NCBI GenBank assembly: GCA_964389765.1
Contig: CAYMES010000003.1
Location: forward strand, 1-53,767
Length of the DNA: 53,767 nt
Origin: Candidatus Woesearchaeota archaeon
Lineage (GTDB): Archaea; Nanobdellota; Nanobdellia; Pacearchaeales; GW2011-AR1
Direction of reading: 5' to 3'
Shown here: piece by piece, positions 3-34,299 of the stretch
Position numbering within the stretch: the first letter of the stretch is position 1
Layout: each line of letters starts with the position of its first letter
Position numbers and translations under genes: made by a program
Notes under the pieces: model-generated
Databases searched by the model: none
What the model was told of the DNA's origin: nothing
Seen by the model: only the letters and a program-made list of their open reading frames with translations

Positions 3-3000
3 ACATTACAAAATGATATAACAGGAATATCTGGAACTTGCTTCACAATCTTAGCAAATAACATAACTCTGGATTTAAATAGTTATAACATTACAGGAGA
101 TAATTCAGCAACAGATTCTGGAGTTTATTCAGATGGATATAATTCTTCTACTATTGAAAATGGAGAAATTTATGATTTTTATTATGGAATATTATTTGAA
201 AATAATAAGAACAACACAATCCAAAATATCACAACAGATGCTACAATTAGTTTTAGTTCAAGCAGTTATAACTTCTTTAATGATACAACAATTACAGATA
301 CTTCTGGTAGAGGAATTAGTTTTGGTTATTATTCTTATTACAATGATGTTTATAATGTTGAAATCTTAAATACATCAAATGATGGGATAAGGATTTTTTA
401 CCCTGCATCTAATAATACATTTAAAAATATTTATATAAATTCTTCTGTTGATGGGATTGTATTTGAATGTCTTAATACAGATGAATGTGTTAATACTAAT
501 TTCACAGATGTAATTATTGAAAATTCAGTAAACAACGATACATTTTTAGAATATGCAAAGAATGTAATTATGAAAAATGTAAGTTATAATCTTTCAAAAG
601 AATATGTTGATAGCAATAGTGAATTAATAAGGAAATGGTATTATAGAGCTTATGTAAATGATACTAATGGAAATGATGTAAGTGGAGCAAATGTTACTGC
701 TTTTAATGTTTCAGATGTTTATCAATTCAATCTAACATCTAATGAAAGTGGATATACTCAGAAAGAAGAGATAATAGATTATGTAAATGATGGAGGAACA
801 AAAACATTTTATAGTTTATATACAATTTATGCTCAAAACAGTAGTTATCCAGATAAATCTGTTAGTTATAATGTAACTGATAATGAAAATAATCTTGCTC
901 ATAACATTTTTTTAGATAGTAATGAACCAATAATCAATTCTGTAGATATAAATCCTTCAATAACAGGGTTAGGACAATCAATAAATATAACTTCAAATGC
1001 TACAGATGATTCTAGTTTGGATTCTGTATGGGTAGGAATAACTGCTCCTGGACAAGATGAAGTAAATTATACAATGACAAGTTATGCAACTGATTTATAT
1101 TATAATAGCAGTTATAGAGGATGGTATAATGGAACTTATAATGTTACAGTTTATGCAAATGATTCAGGTAATAATTTAGGAAGCAATAGCAGCCAATCAT
1201 TCCAAATTTATAATGATAATATAACTGTTCAAATTAGAACTTTAGAAGATAGTTATCAAAATGGTAGTTTTATTAATCTGACTGATCCTCCTTCTGGAAG
1301 TGATGATTTAGAAAGATTAGATGAATTAAGCAGTATAATTAATGAAATGTTTTTAATCGAAGAAGTAAAAGAGAACTTATCGAGCATAGAGAATAAAATA
1401 TTATTAGAAAATAAAAGTTATAAAAATATAAAAGATATAGAAATCGGAGATAAAGTCTTAAGTTTTGATTTAGAAAAAAGTTCTTTAATTAAAGAAAAAG
1501 TTATATCTATTAAAAGAAATAATTATAGAGATTATTTAAGATTAAATAATAAATTAAAAATACCTTTAGATTATGATATATGGATAAATGGAGAATTTGA
1601 AAAAGCAAAAAATATAGAAGTTGGAGACCATATGCTAAATTATAATTTGTCTAAATCTTTAGTAAAAAGTATAGAATATATTGAAAAAGAATATAGCAAT
1701 TTTGATTTGGAAATTGAAAATTCACATAATTATTTTGCTTCAGATTATCTTATCCACAATCTCCAAGTAGGAGGGGAAAGTATAACATACTCAGAATTCT
1801 CCTCACATTCACAAACAACAAATCTCTCTGCATTAAATTTAACATCTAATACAAATGTTTCAAATTTAGTATTAGCAAATTCAAGTGGAAAAATAAGTTT
1901 TTTAGAAGATGTTGAATTAAATTCTAGTTTTGATTTAGATAGTTCTGTTGATATAAATGTTAATAATATTTCTATAGATAGTAGTGCTTATAGCGGAGCT
2001 TTAAATAAAACTGCTAAATTAACAATGAAAACATCTGGAATTGGTTATCCTAAGATTATGAAAGAGGGTTCTGAATGTTCTGCTCCAGATTGCAATATAC
2101 TAAGTTGGGATGCTTCTACAAAAGAAGTAACATTTAATGTTACTTCATTTAGTGATTATACAGCTGCAGAAGCTAATCAATCAAAAGTTCAAAATAATGG
2201 AACATATAATATTAGTTTTTATTTGTTAATGAAAACTGAATATTGGGATGGAGCAAGTTGGAATTTAGAAGATATAGTGATAAATGATACAAAGCAGAAC
2301 ATATTAAGAACCACAAACACGAGTGATTTACTAAAATTAGACACATTATGGAATGCTCAAAATTATAATTCTAGTAATTTAAGTAATGGAGATGGTAAGT
2401 ATAGAGTTTATGTAGCTCTTGAAGATGGAAATGGAAATGTTTTAAGTGATGAAGATAGTAATAATTTAGAAGCTTCATTTAATTTTACTTTTGATAATAG
2501 AGTTCCATATAAAATAGAATTAAATGCTCCTGATAATGATGCATCTTTCTCTGATACAAATAACAATGTTTCATTTAACTGGACAGTTTATGATGCTTTA
2601 GATACTAAATTAACTTGTAATTTAACTGTTGATAGTGTTGTTGAAGGGGAAAATGTTCAGAGTGATAATGGAACAATGGCAAATTATACTGTTAGTGATT
2701 TAACATTAGGAGACCATTTCTGGAATGTGACATGCTGGGATGATGCTGGAAATAGCAATATAAGTGAAACTAGAAATGTTTCAATATATTTAAGTAATAC
2801 AGCTCCAAATGCTCCTAGTTTAGAAATAAATTCAACAGATGGAAGTAATAGAAGTAATCAAGATTTAAATTGTTATGATGTTTTAAGTGATGATGATGCT
2901 GATACAATGAATATAACAGTTGAATGGTATAAAGAAGATGTTTTTAATTTTTCTGCTGATTATAATGATAGTTATGCAAATGGAACTTTATTTATAGCTA

Positions 3001-3878
3001 CACTTAATAAAGAAAATACAACTAAATATCAAAACTGGAGTTGTGGAATAAAGGTTTATGATGGACAAGCTTATTCAAGTTGGGAGAATTCTACTAAATT
3101 AAAAGTTCTTAATACATTGCCTACAGTTTCTTTAACAAATCCTCCAGACGGAAATATAACTTCAAATAGAACACCTGAATTTTCATGGGGTGGAACAGAT
3201 GCTGATGATGATAGTTTAGAATATGAAATTAATATAACTTGTTATGAATCAGGAAGTTTTGTTACTGCTGGTTCTGTATATGAAGATAAAAGTTCTATTG
3301 GAGCAACAACAACATATGTTCCTTCACCTTATTTAAGGTGTTTAGTAGATAATGGACAAACTTATAATTGGACAGTAAGAGCTTATGATGGAGAAGGATA
3401 TGGAAACTGGACTACAATCAGGAATCTTTCAATAAGATCTTCAATAATTATAAGTCTTCCTGTAGATGATGTTGATTTTGGAGATATGAATCTTTCAGAA
3501 ATAGATAATACAACAGATAACTCCCCATCTCCAATAGTTTTAAGAAATGATGGGAATGCAGAATTAAATGTATCTTCTAATTTCACTAATTTATGGGAAA
3601 CAGAAACAAACCCTAATAATAGTTATCAATACAAGATAAGAAACCTTTCATCTGGTTGTTTTGTTGAACAAGGAACTCAAAAAACATGGGCACAATCTCC
3701 TACACCAAGTATAACTAGTAATGTTATAAATAGGTTGAATTTCACTTCAGGATATCAACAAGGATGTAATAATGTATCTATAGATATTCATGTAGAAGTT
3801 CCAAGTAGTGAAACACCTGGAAATAAATCTTCAATAATAACTTTTATATCAAGTTTAGGAGAACCAAAAGTAAATTAA
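3..3878 (+). CDS. Giant secreted surface glycoprotein/adhesin, 5'-truncated by the window: parallel beta-helix repeats, Ig/FN3-like domains, internal Hint domain, C-terminal pilin-like domain
   Basis: The frame of ORF 570..3878 is open back to position 3 (TLQNDITGISGTCFTILANNITLDLNSYNITG...GIRIF...GIVFE), which reads like NosD/pectin-lyase-like beta-helix repeats. Ig/FN3 signatures (YNVTVYANDSGNN, HFWNVTCWDDAGN, YNWTVRAYDG) and very dense N-x-S/T sequons. Confidence 0.8.
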   Translation, partial: TLQNDITGISGTCFTILANNITLDLNSYNITGDNSATDSGVYSDGYNSSTIENGEIYDFYYGILFENNKNNTIQNITTDATISFSSSSYNFFNDTTITDTSGRGISFGYYSYYNDVYNVEILNTSNDGIRIFYPASNNTFKNIYINSSVDGIVFECLNTDECVNTNFTDVIIENSVNNDTFLEYAKNVIMKNVSYNLSKEYVDSNSELIRKWYYRAYVNDTNGNDVSGANVTAFNVSDVYQFNLTSNESGYTQKEEIIDYVNDGGTKTFYSLYTIYAQNSSYPDKSVSYNVTDNENNLAHNIFLDSNEPIINSVDINPSITGLGQSINITSNATDDSSLDSVWVGITAPGQDEVNYTMTSYATDLYYNSSYRGWYNGTYNVTVYANDSGNNLGSNSSQSFQIYNDNITVQIRTLEDSYQNGSFINLTDPPSGSDDLERLDELSSIINEMFLIEEVKENLSSIENKILLENKSYKNIKDIEIGDKVLSFDLEKSSLIKEKVISIKRNNYRDYLRLNNKLKIPLDYDIWINGEFEKAKNIEVGDHMLNYNLSKSLVKSIEYIEKEYSNFDLEIENSHNYFASDYLIHNLQVGGESITYSEFSSHSQTTNLSALNLTSNTNVSNLVLANSSGKISFLEDVELNSSFDLDSSVDINVNNISIDSSAYSGALNKTAKLTMKTSGIGYPKIMKEGSECSAPDCNILSWDASTKEVTFNVTSFSDYTAAEANQSKVQNNGTYNISFYLLMKTEYWDGASWNLEDIVINDTKQNILRTTNTSDLLKLDTLWNAQNYNSSNLSNGDGKYRVYVALEDGNGNVLSDEDSNNLEASFNFTFDNRVPYKIELNAPDNDASFSDTNNNVSFNWTVYDALDTKLTCNLTVDSVVEGENVQSDNGTMANYTVSDLTLGDHFWNVTCWDDAGNSNISETRNVSIYLSNTAPNAPSLEINSTDGSNRSNQDLNCYDVLSDDDADTMNITVEWYKEDVFNFSADYNDSYANGTLFIATLNKENTTKYQNWSCGIKVYDGQAYSSWENSTKLKVLNTLPTVSLTNPPDGNITSNRTPEFSWGGTDADDDSLEYEINITCYESGSFVTAGSVYEDKSSIGATTTYVPSPYLRCLVDNGQTYNWTVRAYDGEGYGNWTTIRNLSIRSSIIISLPVDDVDFGDMNLSEIDNTTDNSPSPIVLRNDGNAELNVSSNFTNLWETETNPNNSYQYKIRNLSSGCFVEQGTQKTWAQSPTPSITSNVINRLNFTSGYQQGCNNVSIDIHVEVPSSETPGNKSSIITFISSLGEPKVN
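1374..1760 (+). other. Degenerate Hint (intein-like/BIL-type) domain inside the surface protein
   Basis: KNIKDIEIGDKVLSFD (block A tail), KAKNIEVGDHM, and FDLEIENSHNYFASDYLIHN (blocks F/G ending in His-Asn). No N-terminal Cys and no TxxH in block B. Confidence 0.8.
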
Positions 3879-3907: not shown

Positions 3908-4390
3908 ATGAATAAGCATAGAAAAATTATAGTTGTGCAGTTGATATTTTTAGCTGTGGTTTTTATTGTTTTATATGTTTTATATCCTAAAGCAGATATT
4001 AATATTTCAGGAAATGTAGTTAGTTTTGATTCAGCAAATGCAGAGACAATAATCATTTCTGAAAATCCTGATTTTTCTAATCCTCGTTATATTGATATTG
4101 AAGAAAAAGGAAACCTTTCTTTTAATCTTCCTCCAGGAACTTATTATTGGAAGACAACTAATGGAATAATACAAGGAATAGAACATGAATTAATAATTAA
4201 CTCGGAAGTAGGCATGAAAATTTCAAGAGATGAAAGTAATGAATCAAAGTTAGTTAATATTGGAAATGTCAAAGTTAATGTAACTAAAAATCAAAAAGGA
4301 GTTATGGTAGGGCATATTGTTCTTGAACCAAATCAAAGTAAAGAAATTCAAGATAAGGAAGATGAAAAATATACTGGGAGGCAAATATGA
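3908..4390 (+). CDS. Membrane-anchored small beta-rich protein (FN3-like segment plus NIGNV-containing segment)
   Basis: N-terminal TM helix; ISENPDFSNP...LPPGTYYWK; LVNIGNVKVNVT shared with the neighbouring pilin-like genes. Confidence 0.7.
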   Translation: MNKHRKIIVVQLIFLAVVFIVLYVLYPKADINISGNVVSFDSANAETIIISENPDFSNPRYIDIEEKGNLSFNLPPGTYYWKTTNGIIQGIEHELIINSEVGMKISRDESNESKLVNIGNVKVNVTKNQKGVMVGHIVLEPNQSKEIQDKEDEKYTGRQI

Positions 4391-5673
4391 TTAAAATTTT
4401 AGAAAGAAATTTTATTAAAGAAGAAATTAATAGAGGGATTTATGAGAGTTTATTTAAGATAATCTTTGCGATGTTTATAATTTTGTTTGCGTTATGTTTT
4501 TTTAGTTTAAATGTTTATGCTCTTGGAATATCTCCTGGTAGAACAACTATTGATTATGAACCAGGTTTAGAAAAACAAGTAGAAATATCTATTATTAATA
4601 ATGAGCATAAAAGTATGAAAGTAGCTTTATTTTCAATGATGAGAGATGACTTAAATGGTTCTATTAATTTATTTGAAGACCATCTTGAATTTTTACCAAG
4701 TGAAAAAGAAAAAATTCTTAATTATGAAATAAAACTTCCAGAAGAAATGGGTCCTGGATTGCATAAAGGAGAGATAGTTGCTGTAGAAGTTCCTAGTGGA
4801 CAAGGAGGAGAAACAAGTGTAGGAGCGACAATAGCTGTTGTATCTCAATTACATATTTATGTTCCTTATCCTGGAAAATTTGTAGAAGCTGATTTAAATA
4901 TTTTAGATGCTACTGAAAATAGCACTGCTACTTTTATAGTTCCAGTAACAAGTAGAGGAAAATTGGGAATAGGAGAAGTAAGAGCTGTTATAGATATTTA
5001 TAAATTAGGAGAAAAAATAACAACTTTAGAAACAGACCATCGTTCACTAGATTCAGGAAAAAGAACAGAACTTTCTTCTAAATGGAAAGTAGATGTAAGT
5101 CAAGGAGATTATTTAGCTAAAGTAACTGTTTTTTATGATGGTGAAAGTATAAGATTTGAAAAGCCTTTTACAGTAGGAGAGAAAAAGATAAATGTAGAAA
5201 GTATTTTAGTTAATGATTTTCAGTTAGGAGAAATAGCTAAATTAAGAATATTGGTTGAGAACAAATGGAGCCAAGAATTAGAAAGTGTTTTTGCTAATTT
5301 GTTAATTTATAATAAACAAGAGCAAATAATGGCAGATGTTAAATCATCTTCAGAATCAATTCCTGCTTTAAGTAAAAAAGAATTAGTTGCTTATTGGGAT
5401 ACAGTTGGAGTTAAAGAAGGAGAGTATGAAGGAAAATTAATGGTTAAATATGGGGAAAAAGCATCAGAAAAAGATTTAATATTGAAAGTTTCTCAAGATA
5501 ATCTTGATATTGTAGGATTAGGTTATGCAATAAGAAAAAAACCAAAAGGAATAAGCTTAACAACAATACTTATTATTTTAATAGCAATATTAGTTATAGC
5601 TAATATTTCATGGTTTGTAATACTGAGGAGATTTTTAGGTAAGAAAAAGAAAAAGAAAAATGTTAAGATATGA
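4387..5673 (+). CDS. Secreted multi-Ig-domain protein with C-terminal TM anchor (LGISP family; chaperone/WxLIP-like candidate)
   Basis: Signal-like hydrophobic stretch ending VYA|LGISP, about three Ig-like domains, VPYPG linker, C-terminal TM plus Lys tail. Paralog of 8262..9380. The true start may be downstream of 4387. Confidence 0.7.
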   Translation: MIKILERNFIKEEINRGIYESLFKIIFAMFIILFALCFFSLNVYALGISPGRTTIDYEPGLEKQVEISIINNEHKSMKVALFSMMRDDLNGSINLFEDHLEFLPSEKEKILNYEIKLPEEMGPGLHKGEIVAVEVPSGQGGETSVGATIAVVSQLHIYVPYPGKFVEADLNILDATENSTATFIVPVTSRGKLGIGEVRAVIDIYKLGEKITTLETDHRSLDSGKRTELSSKWKVDVSQGDYLAKVTVFYDGESIRFEKPFTVGEKKINVESILVNDFQLGEIAKLRILVENKWSQELESVFANLLIYNKQEQIMADVKSSSESIPALSKKELVAYWDTVGVKEGEYEGKLMVKYGEKASEKDLILKVSQDNLDIVGLGYAIRKKPKGISLTTILIILIAILVIANISWFVILRRFLGKKKKKKNVKI

Positions 5674-5716
5674 TTCATTACTGACATTAGGTAATAAAAT
5701 TTATCTACTAAAAAAA

Positions 5717-5731
5717 GAAAACATTTAAATA
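5717..5731 (+). promoter_or_regulatory. Archaeal BRE/TATA-like promoter
   Basis: GAAAACATTTAAATA about 45 nt upstream of ATG 5775; the same pattern recurs upstream of several genes in the window. Confidence 0.5.
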
Positions 5732-5774
5732 CCTTTATATTTTATATATAATAATTAAATAAAAAGAGAGGAAA

Positions 5775-5966
5775 ATGGTTTCAGAAAAAATAATTGTTGC
5801 ATTGCTTGTTATAGCTATTTTGTTAACTATTGTTTCTGTTACAGTTACGATAACTGCTTTGAATTCTGATATGGTTCCAAAAATTAGTATTAGTGAACAA
5901 GAAGGTGCTCCAGACACACAAAAAGGAAGAGTTGGTTTAGTAATCAACACTCCGTCAGAAGGTTAA
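5775..5966 (+). CDS. Small membrane peptide (63 aa): TM helix, linker, C-terminal beta-strand motif
   Basis: GAGG upstream of ATG, promoter-like element, stop 1 nt before the next ATG; C-terminal TQKGRVGLVIN. Confidence 0.75.
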   Translation: MVSEKIIVALLVIAILLTIVSVTVTITALNSDMVPKISISEQEGAPDTQKGRVGLVINTPSEG

Positions 5967-5967
5967 G

Positions 5968-6642
5968 ATGGATTCAGAGAATATAAATAATATAATAGCT
6001 GTTTTTGCAGTAGTTCTTGTTGTAGCAGCATTAGCTAATTTAGCAATTACATTTACTAAGGTTTCAGATATAAGACAAGAAATGACAGGAATGGCAACAG
6101 GATATGTGAATATCACTGTAAATACACAGGTAAATATAAGAGTTAATAATGATACAATATGGTGGGGACCAGGAGTTGTAAATGGTACATGGGAAGGAGA
6201 AGATAATTATAATGCTGAATTAACTACTCATGGAGAAGGATCTCCAACAGTTACAGGAGGAAATTGGACAAGTACTGATGAATCACATGCATATGCAATA
6301 CAAGTTCAAAATATTGGAAATGTAAATTGTTCTTTGAAACTTTATTCAGATAAAGATGCATCTGATTTATTCAACAGTTTAAGTGGGACAAATCAATCTT
6401 TTCAATGGAATGTTTCTCAAAAAGAATCTAGTTCATGCAGTGCAGGAACAGAACCACTAGGAGTTTTTAGAGACGTTAATAAAAGTGCTGCAAATGAAGC
6501 TATGTTTTGTGGACAGTTTGATTCTAATCCAGCTAGAGATGAAGTATTTATAGATACTTATCTTATGGTACCTAATGATGCACGAAACACTAATAGTCAG
6601 GAAGTAGCAACAATAACAATAACAGGAGATACAGCAGTTTAA
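5968..6642 (+). CDS. Putative fimbrial/pilin-like subunit A1 (N-terminal TM, TGxATG-YVNITV strand, single beta-sandwich)
   Basis: TM helix, EMTGMATGYVNITVN, NIGNVNC motif, three Cys, C-terminal ATITITGD strand; paralogs at 6805 and 7565. Confidence 0.7.
   Translation: MDSENINNIIAVFAVVLVVAALANLAITFTKVSDIRQEMTGMATGYVNITVNTQVNIRVNNDTIWWGPGVVNGTWEGEDNYNAELTTHGEGSPTVTGGNWTSTDESHAYAIQVQNIGNVNCSLKLYSDKDASDLFNSLSGTNQSFQWNVSQKESSSCSAGTEPLGVFRDVNKSAANEAMFCGQFDSNPARDEVFIDTYLMVPNDARNTNSQEVATITITGDTAV
6031..6637 (+). repeat. 607-bp near-identical direct repeat, copy 1 (copy 2 at 6859..7465)
   Basis: Visual alignment at offset 828 nt; I count about 9 substitutions, clustered near the two ends, with a long identical centre. 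Confidence 0.9.
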
Positions 6643-6644
6643 AT

Positions 6645-6702
6645 TAGTTTATTTTTTTATTTTTGTAATTTTTTTATTTTTAGGTTGGTTTATTTTAATT
6701 TT
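6645..6702 (+). terminator. T-rich archaeal terminator-like tract
   Basis: Multiple oligo-T runs directly after the stop of 5968..6642. Confidence 0.4.
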
Positions 6703-6749
6703 TACTAATATTTGGTAAAATTTTAGTAAGGAATATGGTTGTGATTTGA

Positions 6750-6764
6750 GAAAAGTTTATAAAT
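6750..6764 (+). promoter_or_regulatory. Archaeal BRE/TATA promoter
   Basis: GAAAAGTTTATAAAT about 40 nt upstream of ATG 6805, close to the archaeal consensus. Confidence 0.6.
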
Positions 6765-6804
6765 GTGGCTATGATGTACAATATATAAAAGAGGAAAAAT
6801 AAAG

Positions 6805-7473
6805 ATGGATTTAACTAAAGGATTGTTTATTCTTGTTATTACAATGATTTTTGTTGCGTTAGCTAATTTAGCAATTACATTTACTAAGGTTTCAGATATA
6901 AGACAAGAAGTTACAGGAATGGCAACAGGATATGTGAATATCACTGTAAATACACAGGTAAATATAGCAGTTAATAATGATACAATATGGTGGGGACCAG
7001 GAGTTGTAAATTCTACATGGGAAGGAGAAGATAATTATAATGCTGAATTAACTACTCATGGAGAAGGATCTCCAACAGTTACAGGAGGAAATTGGACAAG
7101 TACTGATGAATCACATGCATATGCAATACAAGTTCAAAATATTGGAAATGTAAATTGTTCTTTGAAACTTTATTCAGATAAAGATGCATCTGATTTATTC
7201 AACAGTTTAAGTGGGACAAATCAATCTTTTCAATGGAATGTTTCTCAAAAAGAATCTAGTTCATGCAGTGCAGGAACAGAACCACTAGGAGTTTTTAGAG
7301 ACGTTAATAAAAGTGCTGCAAATGAAGCTATGTTTTGTGGACAGTTTGATTCTAATCCAGCTAGAGACGAAGTATTTATAGATACTTATCTTATGGTACC
7401 TAATGATGCACAAAACACTAATAGTCAGGAGGTAGCAACAATAACAATAACAGGAGATACAGCAGGCGGCTAG
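6805..7473 (+). CDS. Putative fimbrial/pilin-like subunit A2 (near-identical to 5968..6642)
   Basis: Same mature region with a different N-terminal half of the TM and different last residues. Confidence 0.7.
   Translation: MDLTKGLFILVITMIFVALANLAITFTKVSDIRQEVTGMATGYVNITVNTQVNIAVNNDTIWWGPGVVNSTWEGEDNYNAELTTHGEGSPTVTGGNWTSTDESHAYAIQVQNIGNVNCSLKLYSDKDASDLFNSLSGTNQSFQWNVSQKESSSCSAGTEPLGVFRDVNKSAANEAMFCGQFDSNPARDEVFIDTYLMVPNDAQNTNSQEVATITITGDTAGG
6859..7465 (+). repeat. 607-bp near-identical direct repeat, copy 2
   Basis: Matches 6031..6637. Confidence 0.9.
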
Positions 7474-7564
7474 TTATAACTGGGTTGGTAGAGATATGAA
7501 TTTAAAAAAATTTTATAAATATCTATTTCTTGTTATTTTGATATAAATTATAAATAATTAAAAA

Positions 7565-8197
7565 ATGGATTTAAAGAGATTAGTTTTTATTTTTTCAATA
7601 ATTCTTGTTTTTTTAATGCTTTTAAATATTTTTATGGTTTTTCTTAATATATCTTTTTTTAAAGAAAAAATAACAGGGCATGCAAGTGGTTATGTAAATA
7701 TAACTATTTTAAGTCAGATTAATATTGCTCTTTATAATGATAGTATTGAATGGGGAGGTGGAGATATAGATATTGGAGAAAGTAATGCTACTCTTTATAC
7801 AAGAGGACATGATCAAGCAGTTGTTTTAAGAGGCAATTGGTCTAATGAAAGTGTTTATGGAATGATAATAAAAAATATAGGAAATGTAAATTGTTCTCTT
7901 TTTATAAAAACAGAAAAAAATGCTAGTAGTTTTTTTCAAAGTTCAAGTAATTCAAATCAAGAATATATGTTAAATGTTTCAAATAAAAATGGAGATGCAT
8001 GTAATGGAGGAGTTGTTTTAGGAAATTGGAGCGATGTAAATGTTTCAGATCCAGGAACAAAATATTGTAGCCAATTTAGTTATTCAATTAATAATAATGA
8101 GGTTTTTTTGGATGTTCTTTTTACAGTTCCTTTTGATTCCCAAGTAACAGGTTATCAATCTGATAACATCATAATTACTGGAGATTCTGCAAGTTAA
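7565..8197 (+). CDS. Putative fimbrial/pilin-like subunit B (diverged paralog)
   Basis: KITGHASGYVNITIL, NDSIEWG, GNWS, NIGNVNCSL, EVFLDVLFTVP and IIITGDSA are all colinear with 5968..6642. Confidence 0.7.
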   Translation: MDLKRLVFIFSIILVFLMLLNIFMVFLNISFFKEKITGHASGYVNITILSQINIALYNDSIEWGGGDIDIGESNATLYTRGHDQAVVLRGNWSNESVYGMIIKNIGNVNCSLFIKTEKNASSFFQSSSNSNQEYMLNVSNKNGDACNGGVVLGNWSDVNVSDPGTKYCSQFSYSINNNEVFLDVLFTVPFDSQVTGYQSDNIIITGDSAS

Positions 8198-8261
8198 ATT
8201 ATAAAGAACTGCTAGGATGATAAATAGAAAATTATAAAAATAAAGAAATTTCTTTTATAAG

Positions 8262-18298: not shown

Positions 18299-19219
18299 AT
18301 GTTTATTAGTTTTTCAAATCCTGAATATCTTTTGTTTTTATTGATAATTCCATTTCTTTTTTTAATCCACTTTTTTACTTTAAGAAATAAAAATAAAAAA
18401 GCATTACATTTTGCAAATTTTCAAGCAATAGCAAGAGTTAGAGGAAAAGGATTACTTTCTAAAAATATTTCAATTCTTTTTTTAAGTATCTTTCTTAGTT
18501 TATTGTTAGTTTCTGCTCTTTCAGGTATTAATCTGCATATAATGAAAAAAGCAAGTAGTTTTTCTTTTGTAATTGCTATTGACACTTCAAGCAGTATGGA
18601 TGCTAAAGATATTTTTCCTAATAGATTAGAAGCTGCTAAACAATCTGCAAATAATTTTGTTGAAAATTTACCTTCTCATACTAAAGTAGGAGTTGTTTCT
18701 TTTTCTGGAAATTCTTTTATTCATCAAGATATAACAGACAATAAATATCTTTTAAATAATGCTATAAATGAAATTGAATTAAGTGATATTGAAGGAACAG
18801 ATATTAATGAAGCTGTAATTACCTGTTCAAATTTATTAAGAAAAGAAGATTCAAGAGCAATTGTTTTATTAAGTGATGGGCAGATTACTGTTGGAGGATT
18901 AGATAAGATAGTTAAATATGCAAATGAAAATAATATAATTATTAATTCTGTTGCTATAGGTACAAGACAAGGAGGAAAAACAGAATATGGTATCTCAAAA
19001 TTAGATGAAGATACTTTAAAAGCTCTTTCATATAATACAGATGGAAATTTTTTTAATGCTAGTGATAAACAAGAACTTTCAAGTTCTTTTGAAAAAGCGA
19101 TGAATCTTACAGAAAAAAAAGTAGCTGTGAGTCTTACTTCTTATCTTGTTATAGCTGCTTTAATTGTTTTTTTAATAGAGTTCTTTTTATTAAATACAAG
19201 ATATAAGGTATTGCCTTAG
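18299..19219 (+). CDS. BatA-like membrane VWA domain protein
   Basis: N-terminal F.NP.YL BatA-like TM, MIDAS DTSSSM, NRLEAAK, GTDI, LLSDG, C-terminal TM. Confidence 0.9.
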   Translation: MFISFSNPEYLLFLLIIPFLFLIHFFTLRNKNKKALHFANFQAIARVRGKGLLSKNISILFLSIFLSLLLVSALSGINLHIMKKASSFSFVIAIDTSSSMDAKDIFPNRLEAAKQSANNFVENLPSHTKVGVVSFSGNSFIHQDITDNKYLLNNAINEIELSDIEGTDINEAVITCSNLLRKEDSRAIVLLSDGQITVGGLDKIVKYANENNIIINSVAIGTRQGGKTEYGISKLDEDTLKALSYNTDGNFFNASDKQELSSSFEKAMNLTEKKVAVSLTSYLVIAALIVFLIEFFLLNTRYKVLP

Positions 19220-30471: not shown

Positions 30472-33400
30472 ATGTTATTTAAACCAAATACTCCTCTTTA
30501 CTCTTATGAAATTCAGAAAGAGAGTGGAGAAGATGTTTTATATATAAATTATTTAGGAGCTTCATATGTTCCTAGTTTAGCTGATAGTGAGGAAGTTATG
30601 TCTAGAACAGTTGATTTATTAGTTGAAAATCCAAATGTTTCTAGAATAGTTTTTGTTCAACAAAGAAATTATAGTTATGGGTTCAGTCAGATTTCTTTAT
30701 TACAGGAAATAGCCCAGCTTTATGTTTATTCAACAAAACAAGAAAATATATTGTCTCCTCAGAAACTTTATATTTCAGGACAGCCAAGTGGTAAGAGATA
30801 TGATTCTATGAATTATTTGTTAATGATATTAAAACAAGATCCAATTGCTTGTTATGATGAAATTAAAAGAATGTTAAGACAAGAAAGAGCATTGCTGGAG
30901 AAGGTTTCTGCCCAATATAAAGCAGATGAGATGAATTATATTAGGATATTAGAGAAATTTTTAGCTTTATTAGAAAATACTCAATTAATTAAACAAGCTG
31001 TTCCTTATTTAAGTGATTATTCTCTTGGAGATAGAGAAATTTATGAACAATTTTTTAGACCAGATATAATTCCTAATTTTACATTTACAAGATTAGTTTC
31101 TGCATTTCCTGACGATGCAGAGATAGTTGACCAGTATCAGATTGCTTCTGGTTATGATAAGTCAAATGTTACTATATTAAAGAAAAAAGGAAAAGCTAAA
31201 TATATTTATCATTTAACTCCTCCTGAATATACTTTAGATGAAGACCATCATATGTTAATGAATCTTGCTAGAAATGTTTTAATGGAACATCAGCCAAAAT
31301 CTGAAGAATTTACAGATCCGGAAAGAACTAGAAAGGTTTTTTTTAATGTTGCAAGAGATTTATTGCAAGATTTAGCAAAAAATAAAAATATTAATTTATC
31401 ATATTCAGAATTAAATAAATTAGCTACAATTCTTGTGAGACATACTATTGGTTTTGGTTTAATTGAGGTTTTATTACAAGATAAAAATCTGCAAGATATA
31501 GTTTTAAATGCTCCAATTGCTTTAAATCCTGTATTTGTAAGGCATCAGGAATTTGATGAATGTTATACTAATGTTATTCCAAGTAAAGATGATGCTGATT
31601 CTTGGGCTGCTAAATTTAGGATGATTTCAGGAAGGCCTTTAGATGAAGCAAACCCTGTTTTAGATACTGATTTAAGTATTAATAATGCAAGAGCAAGAGT
31701 TGCTATAATTCAAGAGCCTCTTTCACCAAGCGGATTAGCATATGCTTTTAGAAGACATAGAGACAAGCCATGGACTTTGCCTTTATTTATTCAAAATAAA
31801 ATGATTAATCCTTTTGCTGCAGGTTTAATGAGTTTTTTAATAGATGGAGGAAGAACATTTCTAATTGGAGGAACAAGGTCAAGTGGAAAGACATCTATGT
31901 TAGGAGCTTCTATGTTAGAGATAATGCCTAAATTTAGAACCATAGTTATAGAAGATAGTGTTTCAGGAGATTGCAAAATTCCAGTTAAGAGTAATGGCAA
32001 GTTTAAAATACTAAATATCGGAGATTTAATTGATAGTGAAATAGAGAATAACGGATATCTTGATAAGGATGGTAGAGAAAAAGCAATTCCAGACAATTTA
32101 GAGATTTTTTCAGTAAATAATCAAGGAAAAGTAGTTCTTTCAAAACCTTCTAAACTAATAAGGCATAAATGTAATAAACAAATTTTTGAGATAATTACAA
32201 GAAGTGGGAAAAGAATAAAAACTACCGAAGATCATTCTTTATTTTCTCTTGGAGAAAAAGATATCTTAAAACCTGTAAAAGTAAAGGAGTTGAGAAAAGG
32301 AGATTATTTAGCAATTCCTAGAAAATTATCTTTTAATAGTTTCTTAAAAAAAATAGAATTGATAGATTATACAGATAAATTCAATAAAAAAATATTTGTT
32401 TGTGGAGAGAATATAAGAAAATATTTTTTAGAAAATAAAAAAGATATATTTTCTTTAGCATATTCTCTTGGATATAAGAAGTCTACAATACAAAATTGGA
32501 AAGTAAAAAACATTTTACCAATAAAAATCTTTGAAAAAGTTGAAGATAAGATAGTTAAAGAAAATTTATTTATAAAATCTTATGGAAATTCAGGAAAGAT
32601 TCCTTTTGATTTAATTTTAGATAAAGATTTTTTAAATTTTGTGGGATTATGGATTGCTGATGGTTGCTATGATAAAAACAGTATAATAGTTAGTGTTCAA
32701 GAGCAAGGAAATAAAGATTTAGTTAGAAGATTTGCTAGTAAATTTGGTTTGTTAATTAAACAACATAGTGACGGATTTTCTTTAATGTTGAATTCAGCAG
32801 TATTAAAACAAGCTATGGAAGTTATTGGATTTAAAGGAGATTCATTTACAAAAAAGATTCCTGATTGGGTATATAATTTATCAGATGAACAAGTAGGATG
32901 GTTGTTACAAGGTTTTTTTAGTGGAGATGGATGTGTTTCAGATAAAGAGATAATGCTTTCTGTAAGAAGTAGAAATTTAATAGAAGATGTAGATATATTA
33001 TTGTTAAGATTAGGCATAGTATCAAGAATTATTTATGGAAAAAATAAAGGTTCATATTTTAAAGAAGCTAAAGATATGTTTAATATTAGAATAGGAACAG
33101 TAAAAGAAATTAAAAAATTCAGAAGAAATATTGGTTTTTTGGTTAAGAAAAAACAGGAGAGACTTGAAAAATTAGCAGGAAGAGTTTCTTCACATGATAG
33201 TTCTGATGTTATACCTGTTTGTTTAGATATTAAAAAGGAATTACAGAAGATTCTTGGAAAGAGATTTAATAAGCATGATTATATAACTAGGAGAAATAAT
33301 CCAGGTAGAGAACATTTGAGGAAGTTGCTTAGTTTAGTTCCAGAAGGAGTTACAAATCCTGTAGATCCTCTTAGAAAAGCAGTAGATTCAGATATTTTTT

Positions 33401-34299
33401 GGGATCAGGTAAAATCAATTAAGAAGATTAATTATAAAGGATATGTTTATGATATTTCTGTTCCTGAAAATGAAAACTTTATTTGCGAAAATATAATTGC
33501 ACATAATACTTTAGAGCTTCCTGTTGAATCTTTGAGAAAAATTGGTTATGATATTTTAAGAATGAAAGTTAGAGGAGCTTTACTTAAAACAGAAACAGAA
33601 GTAAGTGCAGATGAAGGAATTAGAACAAGTTTAAGATTAGGAGATTCTTGCCTTATTGTTGGAGAAGTTAGAAGTACAGAGGCGAAAGCTTTGTATGAAG
33701 CTATGAGGGTAGGTGCTTTAGCTAATGTTGTTGCAGGAACAATTCATGGTGCTAGCCCATATTCTGTTTTTGATAGAGTTGTTAATGATTTAGAAGTTCC
33801 AGTTACATCTTTTAAAGCAACAGATGCTATATTAATTGTTAATCCTGTTAAAACTGCTGATGGACTTCATTCTTGGAAAAGAGCAATACAATTAACAGAA
33901 GTTAGAAAGCACTGGACAGAAGATCCTTTAAGAGAAGGAGGATTTGTTGATTTATTAAAATATAATGTTATTAAAGATGAATTAGAAGCTACTGAAGAAT
34001 TAATTAATGGAGATAGCCAGTTAATAAAAGATATTGCAGGACAAGTTAAAGGATGGGCTGGAAATTGGGATGCTGTTTATGACAACATAATGTTAAGGGC
34101 AAAAGTTAAAAAAGAAATTGTGAATATAGCAGAAAAATTAAAAATGCCTGAACTTTTAGAAGCAGATTTTAATGCTTTGTCAAATAATATGTTTCATAGT
34201 TTTTCTGAGCAGGTAATGAAAGAAGTTGGGTTGCCAGTATCTGATAGAGTTTTTTCTAGATGGCAGAAATGGTTAAAAGATTATGTTAAAAAGAAATAA
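30472..34299 (+). CDS. Type IV pilus/type II secretion assembly ATPase (VirB11/TadA/CpaF-like), intein-containing
   Basis: GFGLIEVLLQD, LDEANPVLD, Walker A GGTRSSGKTS, Asp box IED|TLEL split by the intein, LRLGD..LIVGEVR (Walker B), GTIHG. Confidence 0.92.
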   Translation: MLFKPNTPLYSYEIQKESGEDVLYINYLGASYVPSLADSEEVMSRTVDLLVENPNVSRIVFVQQRNYSYGFSQISLLQEIAQLYVYSTKQENILSPQKLYISGQPSGKRYDSMNYLLMILKQDPIACYDEIKRMLRQERALLEKVSAQYKADEMNYIRILEKFLALLENTQLIKQAVPYLSDYSLGDREIYEQFFRPDIIPNFTFTRLVSAFPDDAEIVDQYQIASGYDKSNVTILKKKGKAKYIYHLTPPEYTLDEDHHMLMNLARNVLMEHQPKSEEFTDPERTRKVFFNVARDLLQDLAKNKNINLSYSELNKLATILVRHTIGFGLIEVLLQDKNLQDIVLNAPIALNPVFVRHQEFDECYTNVIPSKDDADSWAAKFRMISGRPLDEANPVLDTDLSINNARARVAIIQEPLSPSGLAYAFRRHRDKPWTLPLFIQNKMINPFAAGLMSFLIDGGRTFLIGGTRSSGKTSMLGASMLEIMPKFRTIVIEDSVSGDCKIPVKSNGKFKILNIGDLIDSEIENNGYLDKDGREKAIPDNLEIFSVNNQGKVVLSKPSKLIRHKCNKQIFEIITRSGKRIKTTEDHSLFSLGEKDILKPVKVKELRKGDYLAIPRKLSFNSFLKKIELIDYTDKFNKKIFVCGENIRKYFLENKKDIFSLAYSLGYKKSTIQNWKVKNILPIKIFEKVEDKIVKENLFIKSYGNSGKIPFDLILDKDFLNFVGLWIADGCYDKNSIIVSVQEQGNKDLVRRFASKFGLLIKQHSDGFSLMLNSAVLKQAMEVIGFKGDSFTKKIPDWVYNLSDEQVGWLLQGFFSGDGCVSDKEIMLSVRSRNLIEDVDILLLRLGIVSRIIYGKNKGSYFKEAKDMFNIRIGTVKEIKKFRRNIGFLVKKKQERLEKLAGRVSSHDSSDVIPVCLDIKKELQKILGKRFNKHDYITRRNNPGREHLRKLLSLVPEGVTNPVDPLRKAVDSDIFWDQVKSIKKINYKGYVYDISVPENENFICENIIAHNTLELPVESLRKIGYDILRMKVRGALLKTETEVSADEGIRTSLRLGDSCLIVGEVRSTEAKALYEAMRVGALANVVAGTIHGASPYSVFDRVVNDLEVPVTSFKATDAILIVNPVKTADGLHSWKRAIQLTEVRKHWTEDPLREGGFVDLLKYNVIKDELEATEELINGDSQLIKDIAGQVKGWAGNWDAVYDNIMLRAKVKKEIVNIAEKLKMPELLEADFNALSNNMFHSFSEQVMKEVGLPVSDRVFSRWQKWLKDYVKKK
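31957..33507 (+). mobile_element. Intein (517 aa) with LAGLIDADG homing endonuclease
   Basis: Starts SVSGD after IED; block B IKTTEDHSLF; LAGLIDADG-like FVGLWIADG and LLQGFFSGDG; ends VYDISVPENENFICENIIAHN followed by Thr. Removal restores IEDTLEL. Confidence 0.93.

What the first reader, a model, noticed from the sequence alone, without database searches (positions are those of the whole stretch)
1374..1760. Half-disabled Hint domain in the middle of an extracellular adhesin
Seen: a 129-aa Lys-rich Hint domain interrupts an otherwise Asn/Ser/Thr-rich surface protein. The N-terminal nucleophile position (NLSSIENKILL) and block-B TxxH (IPLDYDIW) are lost, while C-terminal FDLEI...HNYFA...IHN is intact and followed by Leu, not Cys/Ser/Thr. 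Established: Asn cyclisation at His-Asn can give C-terminal cleavage without splicing in bacterial intein-like and pretoxin-Hint domains. Inference: it cannot splice but may autocleave at HN|L, shedding the N-terminal beta-helix part from the C-terminal pilin-domain part as a release or detachment switch.
Basis: partly seen in the sequence, partly recalled or inferred. Interest (0 to 1): 0.72.

Follow-up and report, generated by a model that had tools for sequence, protein, structure and literature searches.

The report
Half-disabled Hint domain, archaeal surface protein
A giant, probably secreted protein of a small-genome archaeon carries an intein-like domain that has lost the residues for cutting at its front end but kept all four for cutting at its back end, so it likely cannot splice and would at most cut the protein once, just ahead of a second domain predicted to fold like the self-cutting domain of the nuclear-pore protein Nup98.

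Summary
The Hint domain is real (PT-HINT above cut-off). Block A and block-B Thr/His are replaced by residues seen in 0 of 258 homologues, while Asp568, His575, His585 and Asn586 are intact. Corrections: Leu at +1 is normal for type-A bacterial intein-like (BIL) domains (Cys/Ser/Thr in 21 of 247); two serines lie 1-2 residues off the nucleophile position; 'pilin' is unproven. The Hint fills a hypervariable slot that holds other cargo in most relatives, so it is dispensable. No orthologue with this Hint was found, so selection on His-Asn could not be tested; its survival alone is not significant (P=0.55). Three other front-dead Hints also keep His/His-Asn, but all sit in tandem pairs. The next domain has the Nup98 autoproteolytic fold (Z 10.8) with SFS instead of HFS. 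Best reading: a BIL-derived domain that likely cleaves slowly only at Asn586|Leu587 (0.5); inert folded relic 0.37; a regulated detachment switch is unsupported. The scan noted front-dead Hints and Nup98-like domains before in other CPR/DPANN genomes. New variant of a known kind.

The parts
3..3878 (+). 5'-open ORF, at least 1291 aa, Asn/Ser/Thr-rich modular surface protein (6.8 N-x-S/T sequons per 100 aa outside the Hint); start lies off the contig end
117..536 (+). Right-handed beta-helix (PF13229, 35.8 bits, cut-off 25.9)
1275..1292 (+). Conserved NLTDPP motif that marks the left edge of the hypervariable slot
1377..1760 (+). Hint domain, residues 459-586, derived from type-A BIL-like domains
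1377..1394 (+). Degenerate block A (Leu459 at the nucleophile register; Ser460, Ser461 adjacent; Asn464 for conserved Thr)
1563..1574 (+). Degenerate block B: Pro521 and Tyr524 in place of Thr B7 and His B10
   Evidence: same letters in a second assembly
1704..1763 (+). Intact blocks F and G: Asp568 (F4), His575 (F13), His585-Asn586 (G6, G7), then Leu587; predicted cut site Asn586|Leu587
   Evidence: cleavage inferred from PMC4031507 section 6
1773..2186 (+). Nup98-type autoproteolytic-domain fold; motif Ser715-Phe716-Ser717 (2145-2153) where Nup98 and MAIN have His-Phe-Ser
2490..3430 (+). Run of probable Ig-like domains (weak Big_13 and Ig_Rha78A_N hits, below cut-off)
3426..3875 (+). C-terminal domain homologous to the three small secreted proteins downstream; possible filament-subunit-like anchor (inferred)
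   Evidence: hhalign 92.9%, E 3.6e-7; weak complex support
5968..8197 (+). Three small paralogous proteins (224, 222, 210 aa) with an N-terminal hydrophobic segment; family found in 63 of 201 genomes of the same family; no Pfam, NCBIfam or PDB match

Best explanation
The segment is a Hint domain of the type-A bacterial-intein-like kind, sitting in a swappable slot of a giant, probably secreted archaeal protein; it has lost the residues for the N-terminal step and kept those for the C-terminal step, so it likely cannot splice and would cut once, probably slowly and without a trigger, at Asn586|Leu587. Shown: domain identity, residue pattern, slot variability. Inferred: Asn586 cyclises with help from His575 and His585; the N-terminal part (beta-helix repeats plus the Hint) parts from the C-terminal part (Nup98-like domain, Ig-like run, subunit-like end). 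Which half stays on the cell is unknown because the gene start is missing. The cut is an accessory feature, since most relatives lack a Hint in this slot.
For: PT-HINT above cut-off; 108.5 bits to a family HMM. Of 41 conserved columns only 8 carry rare residues, 5 of them in blocks A and B; the chance that 8 random losses hit all 3 N-side and none of 4 C-side catalytic sites is 0.003; if only the 7 catalytic sites are free, 1 in 35 (my arithmetic, post hoc). C-side residues are not kept for folding alone: His F13 survives in 2 of 10 homologues that lost the terminal Asn, against 168 of 236 intact ones and 4 of 4 front-dead ones that keep Asn, the window included. One more block-B-dead domain with His/His-Asn kept among 39 further domains (P0179). 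Type-A BILs end in His-Asn, lack a +1 nucleophile and give mostly cleavage products; His F13 and His G6 assist Asn cyclisation (PMC4031507, passages and sections 4 and 6).
Against: Given the N-side losses, keeping all 4 C-side residues has probability 0.55 by chance. No orthologue with this Hint: best identity 43%, none. The three comparable front-dead domains (P0012, P0015, P0033) each directly follow a Hint that lost its Asn, a context the window lacks, and two of them are clearly orthologous. One front-dead domain is dead at both ends (P0013). In some inteins C-terminal cleavage is strictly coupled to earlier steps, and in a class-2 intein loss of His B10 cuts both cleavages sharply. The end branch is long (1.2 against a median of 0.79), as relaxed selection would give. 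The homologue set is biased toward intact domains by how it was collected.
Confidence: 0.5

Rival explanations
1. Inert relic: the domain is catalytically dead, kept only because it must fold inside a secreted chain; the C-terminal residues have not yet drifted or cannot act without the N-terminal step.
For: C-side retention not significant on its own (P=0.55); slot cargo is interchangeable and a Hint was seen in 3 of 17 loci with the slot in view; single-sided decay occurs at both ends (11 N-side only, 7 C-side only, 3 both among 257); long end branch; no orthologue found.
Against: Losses cluster on the N-side catalytic positions while blocks F and G carry no non-conservative change; homologues that lose Asn usually lose His F13 too (8 of 10), whereas the window keeps Asp, His, His and Asn.
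Confidence: 0.37
2. Regulated detachment switch: the cut is triggered by pH, contact or force and sheds the beta-helix adhesin from a filament tip.
For: C-terminal cleavage of inteins is favoured at low pH; the C-terminal domain is homologous to the small secreted neighbours and gives weak complex support with one of them: score 0.46, best control 0.13, runs agreeing in at least 97% of contacts, partner pLDDT at least 82; the mark was reached by 116 of 157 solved and 2 of 215 mismatched pairs, but at 0.60 or under by only 18 solved pairs and both mismatches.
Against: No sequence feature points to a trigger; the Hint is absent from most relatives with the same architecture; the filament role is not established (no family match); the two chains are homologues; the anchored end is unknown.
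Confidence: 0.08
3. The N-terminal step survives through Ser460 or Ser461 with a substitute for His B10, so the domain still cleaves at both ends or splices weakly.
For: The nearest homologues by identity and path are mostly Ser1 Hints; some Ser1 homologues have Gln or Asn at B10 with His-Asn kept; one intein splices without His B10 (Tko CDC21-1).
Against: Pro at B7 and Tyr at B10 occur in 0 of 258 homologues; Phe2 and Thr6 are lost too; a Ser1 reading needs a deletion in block A; the placement among Ser1 Hints is not starred by IQ-TREE.
Confidence: 0.04
4. The degenerate N-terminus is an assembly error in a low-coverage, AT-rich stretch.
For: The second assembly does not span 1365-1513; the gene has repeats elsewhere in the genome.
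Against: The frame is open throughout; the linker before the Hint aligns by eye with the paralogue on C28 and with P0001; the block-B changes are present in the second assembly.
Confidence: 0.02

Closest known systems
Type-A bacterial intein-like (BIL) domains, e.g. PDB 2lwy (Amitai 2003, Dassa 2004 and Aranko 2013 seen only as citations and as summarised in PMC4031507, PMC5874633, PMC7765530)
   Same: Short Hint without endonuclease; C-terminal His-Asn; no nucleophile at +1; sits in a hypervariable region of a poorly conserved protein; best PDB sequence hit.
   Different: No Cys/Ser in the nucleophile register and no block-B Thr/His, so the N-terminal thioester step and BIL-type splicing should be lost; archaeal host; stands alone at a domain boundary.
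Pretoxin HINT (PF07591) of polymorphic toxins (PMC3482391, passages)
   Same: Scores above the Pfam cut-off when isolated; predicted role is autoproteolytic release of a C-terminal part.
   Different: No toxin domain was found after it; what follows is a Nup98-like domain, Ig-like domains and a subunit-like end.
[quoted passage not shown]
   Same: No Cys/Ser at position 1.
   Different: Class 2 needs Cys+1 and block-B Thr/His; class 3 needs Cys at F4. The window has Leu+1, Pro/Tyr in block B and Asp at F4.
Nup98/Nup145N autoproteolytic domain and microbial MAIN domains (bioRxiv 10.64898/2026.05.12.724683, passages), for the adjacent domain 1773-2186
   Same: Same predicted fold (Z 10.8, rmsd 3.4, 122 aligned to 2q5x); Phe-Ser of the cleavage turn kept; surface protein with adhesion-type domains.
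   Different: Ser replaces the His of the H-x-S/T motif; closer to Nup98 (Z 9.4-10.8) than to GAIN/ZU5 (Z up to 6.7); among 55 distinct homologues 14 read HF[ST], 19 GFS, 11 SFS.

Membership tests
Type-A BIL domain | Hint-family sequence | tested here: met
Type-A BIL domain | C-terminal His-Asn with block-F His | tested here: met
   His575, His585, Asn586
Type-A BIL domain | No Cys/Ser/Thr at +1 | tested here: met
   Leu587; family norm, 21 of 247 have Cys/Ser/Thr
Type-A BIL domain | Insertion in a hypervariable region of a non-conserved protein | tested here: met
   slot of 169 aa here, 206-1741 aa with different cargo in relatives
Type-A BIL domain | N-terminal Cys/Ser nucleophile | tested here: inconclusive
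   Leu459 in ungapped register; Ser460 and Ser461 adjacent
Type-A BIL domain | Block-B Thr-x-x-His | tested here: not met
   Pro521, Tyr524; each in 0 of 258 homologues. Filed therefore as a BIL-derived variant, not as a working member
Type-A BIL domain | Autocleavage or splicing activity | not testable with these tools
   needs expression and assay
Class 1 intein | Cys/Ser/Thr at +1 and block-B His | tested here: not met
   Leu587, Tyr524
Class 2 intein | Cys at +1 with block-B Thr/His | tested here: not met
   definition
Class 3 intein | Cys at F4 | tested here: not met
   Asp568; definition
Pretoxin HINT | PF07591 score above cut-off | tested here: met
   32.9 bits isolated; 27.4 (just under 27.7) in the whole ORF
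Pretoxin HINT | Position directly before a C-terminal toxin domain | tested here: not met
   followed by a Nup98-like fold and Ig-like domains; no toxin family hit
Nup98/GAIN/MAIN autoproteolytic domain (adjacent domain) | Fold | tested here: met
   pLDDT 85.4; Foldseek prob 1.00, E 8e-5; Z 10.8; 22 of 23 aligned members hit PF04096, the window at 28.0 bits against cut-off 28.4
Nup98/GAIN/MAIN autoproteolytic domain (adjacent domain) | H-x-S/T catalytic motif | tested here: not met
   Ser715-Phe716-Ser717
Nup98/GAIN/MAIN autoproteolytic domain (adjacent domain) | Self-cleavage before the Ser/Thr | not testable with these tools
   needs assay
Pilin (C-terminal domain and small neighbours) | Match to a known pilin family or structure | tested here: inconclusive
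   no hit in Pfam, NCBIfam or PDB sequences; no fold search could be run on it

The most novel reading that the evidence does not exclude
A natural, stand-alone C-terminal-only Hint protease placed in series with a His-less Nup98-type domain: the Hint supplies an irreversible cut that sheds or matures a filament-tip adhesin of a DPANN archaeon, and C-only Hints are a recurring, selected class in small-genome prokaryotes (here alone, elsewhere as the outer half of tandem pairs).
Probability: 0.17. Interest if true: 0.68.

Novelty: new variant of a known kind. Interest (0 to 1): 0.4.

Why it matters
If it cuts, it is a naturally evolved C-terminal-only Hint, a small and directly testable answer to what BIL domains do in surface proteins, and a possible source of self-cleaving tags. 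It would also give host-attached archaea a way to shed or mature an adhesin. The neighbouring Nup98-like domain, mostly His-less in these archaea, bears on the prokaryotic roots of a nuclear-pore autoprotease. If it does not cut, it is an ordinary decayed insert in a hypervariable gene.

Tried and rejected
Orthologue hunt for the half-dead Hint: representative search (150 best of 2384 hits read; best full-length identity 43%), word-index searches (with no hit, 107), 301 and 401 genomes of the same family, GTDB and metagenome scans with the flanking region: none found, so no selection test. The closest collinear relative (L107) is cut off 59 residues upstream of the Nup98-like domain and shows other cargo there. 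Single-sequence AlphaFold of the Hint region gave pLDDT 29.9 and was discarded, so the Hint fold rests on sequence profiles. A combined two-domain alignment mis-aligned and was not used. Placement among Ser1 Hints: FastTree 0.93 was not confirmed by IQ-TREE (no starred set, 46 of 259 rows); not claimed. Descent from the two intact Hints in the same slot of P0001 is rejected at p-AU 0.0145, with a long branch in play. Pairwise BLASTP of the C-terminal domain against the small neighbours was not significant (E 2.3 and 63); only profiles link them. The protein atlas gave no answer. No RNA holder listed. Sigma-70-type and terminator scans were at chance level and do not suit an archaeon. An out-of-frame Cys-Phe just upstream (about 1348-1353) ends in a stop and lies about ten codons too far from the domain; rejected by eye. 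Papers not held: Liao et al. 2014 on GAIN/ZU5/Nup98 and two Nup98 mechanism papers, so how much Nup98-type cleavage depends on the His is left open.

Full report
Setting. The window is contig C3 of a 1.31-Mb, 88% complete genome with 27% GC. It carries archaeal genes such as a FlaK-type peptidase, and relatives of the host protein lie in records titled Woesearchaeota, Nanoarchaeota, Aenigmatarchaeota, Nanohaloarchaeota and Methanosarcinales; a DPANN-type archaeon is likely (inferred). The finding lies in a 5'-open ORF of at least 1291 aa (3..3878). Two other contigs, C53 and C67, end in open frames with repeated copies of its first 300 residues; they may be its 5' part or paralogues.

Observation. 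Residues 458-586 score 32.9 bits on PT-HINT (cut-off 27.7), hit the BIL structure 2lwy first (E 0.002) and score 108.5 bits on an HMM built from 57 intact homologues. The Lys-rich, sequon-poor make-up against the flanks is real. I tabulated catalytic positions in 259 full-span domains out of 300 hits; partial hits were dropped, leaving 257 distinct domains besides the window. The set was gathered by likeness to the window and aligned to a profile of intact domains, so decayed domains are undercounted. Of 41 conserved columns the window has a rare residue (under 5%) at 8. Five are in blocks A and B: Leu459 for Cys, Ser460 for Phe, Asn464 for Thr, Pro521 for Thr B7 and Tyr524 for His B10, each seen in 0 of 258 homologues. 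The other three are Met, Leu and Ile at non-catalytic columns. Asp568 (F4), His575 (F13), His585 and Asn586 are intact. A second assembly, possibly of the same sample, matches 1514-2215 without a difference but leaves 1365-1513 uncovered.

Is the asymmetry more than chance? That 8 random losses among 41 columns would hit all three N-side and none of four C-side catalytic sites has probability 0.003, but once the N-side losses are taken as given, keeping the C-side set has probability 0.55. So the N-side loss is targeted; the C-side retention is not significant in this one sequence. If only the seven catalytic sites are free to drift, the pattern has a 1 in 35 chance (my arithmetic, post hoc). 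Among homologues, 236 of 257 are intact, 11 are hit on the N side only, 7 on the C side only and 3 on both. His F13 is kept by 168 of 236 intact domains, by 2 of 10 that lost the terminal Asn, and by 4 of 4 that lost both position 1 and His B10 but kept Asn (window included); a fifth front-dead domain is dead at both ends. This suggests that the C-side residues decay together when unused. Against over-reading: the other three (P0012, P0015, P0033) lack Asp/Asn at F4, each directly follows a Hint that lost its Asn, so that only the outer ends of the pair survive, and P0012 and P0015 are orthologous. Among 39 further domains, one more has block B lost and His/His-Asn kept, at the very start of P0179. 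No orthologue of the window's Hint was found; the best identity is 43%.

Context. The Hint fills a slot between an NLTDPP motif and the next domain. A paralogue on C28 has about 480 unrelated residues there. Of 29 related loci, 17 show both edges; the slot is 206-1741 aa against 169 here, and a Hint is present in 3 of the 17 (two distinct proteins; several loci are duplicates). In those, intact Hints (two Cys1 in P0001, one Ser1 in L115) sit inside a loop of another domain; in the window that domain is absent and the Hint stands alone at a domain boundary. Sisterhood with the P0001 Hints is rejected (p-AU 0.0145, long branch caveat); the nearest rows are mostly Ser1 Hints, but IQ-TREE stars no set that holds the window. 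The Hint is thus an accessory, probably independently acquired cargo.

The next domain. Residues 591-728 are a Nup98-type autoproteolytic fold: 22 of 23 aligned members hit PF04096, the profile finds Nup116 and Nup98 chains first, the model has pLDDT 85.4, Foldseek gives Nup98 at probability 1.00, and VIA-align gives Z 10.8, rmsd 3.4, 122 aligned, with GAIN and ZU5 chains at Z 6.7 and below. PF04096 matched in 28 of 151 genomes of the family, 12 above cut-off, and in 0 of 14 control genomes. The cleavage turn reads Ser-Phe-Ser; among 55 distinct homologues 14 read HF[ST], 19 GFS, 11 SFS, 7 other and 4 could not be read. Microbial GAIN-like (MAIN) domains cut at H-x-S/T and stay associated (bioRxiv 10.64898/2026.05.12.724683, passages; its supplements, which may list such proteins, were closed). 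Whether His-less versions cut is open. Earlier scan notes had found this domain in other DPANN proteins.

The ends. The N-terminus has a beta-helix above cut-off. The last 150 residues are homologous to three small secreted neighbours (hhalign 92.9%, E 3.6e-7), a family found in 63 of 201 genomes with no Pfam, NCBIfam or PDB match. A predicted complex of that domain with one neighbour gave weak support: 0.46 against a best control of 0.13, contacts agreeing at 97% or more, partner pLDDT at least 82; the mark was reached by 116 of 157 solved and 2 of 215 mismatched pairs, but at 0.60 or under by only 18 solved pairs and both mismatches. A filament with this protein at its tip is plausible and unproven; 'adhesin' and 'pilin' are inferences.

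Mechanism. From PMC4031507 (passages, sections 4 and 6): Thr B7, His B10 and residue F4 drive the N-terminal step; His F13 and His G6 assist Asn cyclisation; type-A BILs end in His-Asn, lack the +1 nucleophile and give mostly cleavage products, and their splicing needs the N-terminal thioester. The same review notes inteins whose C-terminal cleavage is strictly coupled to earlier steps, and a class-2 intein in which loss of His B10 reduces both cleavages. So splicing is very unlikely; a single cut at Asn586|Leu587 is chemically possible but not assured. I put a slow, untriggered C-terminal cut at 0.5, an inert folded relic at 0.37, a regulated detachment switch at 0.08, residual N-terminal activity at 0.04 and artefact at 0.02. 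Unlike a GAIN/MAIN cut, a Hint cut leaves no shared strand, so the halves would probably separate for good (inferred). Which half stays on the cell is unknown: the gene start is missing, and some relatives begin with a hydrophobic segment that could be a signal or an anchor.

Novelty. Hint/BIL domains in variable surface proteins are known (PMC4031507, PMC5874633, PMC7765530, PMC3482391; passages only; the primary BIL papers were seen only as citations). Six searches listed no paper on Hint domains in DPANN or Patescibacteria surface proteins or on natural C-only BILs; I saw listings and abstract starts, and the library lacks most subscription journals. The scan's earlier notes describe a Cys-less Hint and a lopsided tandem pair in other genomes (unchecked). 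Verdict: real feature, new variant of a known kind, interest 0.4; the boldest reading not excluded, a selected C-only Hint working in series with a His-less Nup98-like domain, has probability 0.17.

Noticed in passing
L002 (G000:C17:14434-16251, +): A thioredoxin-like gene with an intein of about 490 aa (Cys start, His-Asn end, endonuclease-sized) inserted inside the W-C-x-x-C active-site motif, just before its first Cys. An unusual host for an intein; not checked against the literature.
   Followed up: no
window 30472-34299 (+): TadA/FlaI/VirB11-type ATPase with a LAGLIDADG intein that ends His-Asn before Thr.
   Followed up: partly
P0012 (485-749), P0015 (284-548), P0033 (1-266): Tandem Hint pairs in which the inner junction residues have decayed and the outer ends are kept: the first lost its Asn, the second lost position 1 and His B10. 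May act as one excisable unit.
   Followed up: partly
window 1773-2186 and loci L065-L094: Nup98-type domain widespread in surface proteins of this archaeal family; about three quarters of the copies read lack the catalytic His.
   Followed up: yes
window 3908-16320 (+): Co-directional run of secreted and membrane-anchored proteins: three small paralogues, two Ig-rich proteins with C-terminal membrane segments, a 161-aa protein with a weak WxLIP hit and two large Ig-rich proteins; candidate undescribed filament system.
   Followed up: partly
G000 contigs C53 and C67: Open frames of 2187 and 1290 aa that run off the contig ends and hold several copies of the beta-helix module of this gene (69-87% DNA identity); possibly the missing 5' part of a much larger gene.
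   Followed up: partly
L008 against L010, L015, L025, L039: In a set of orthologous proteins with a Hint near the N-terminus, one copy has lost Cys1 while keeping block B and His-Asn.
   Followed up: no
window 16379-19219 (+): MoxR AAA ATPase, DUF58 and vWA/BatA genes directly after the surface-protein run.
   Followed up: no
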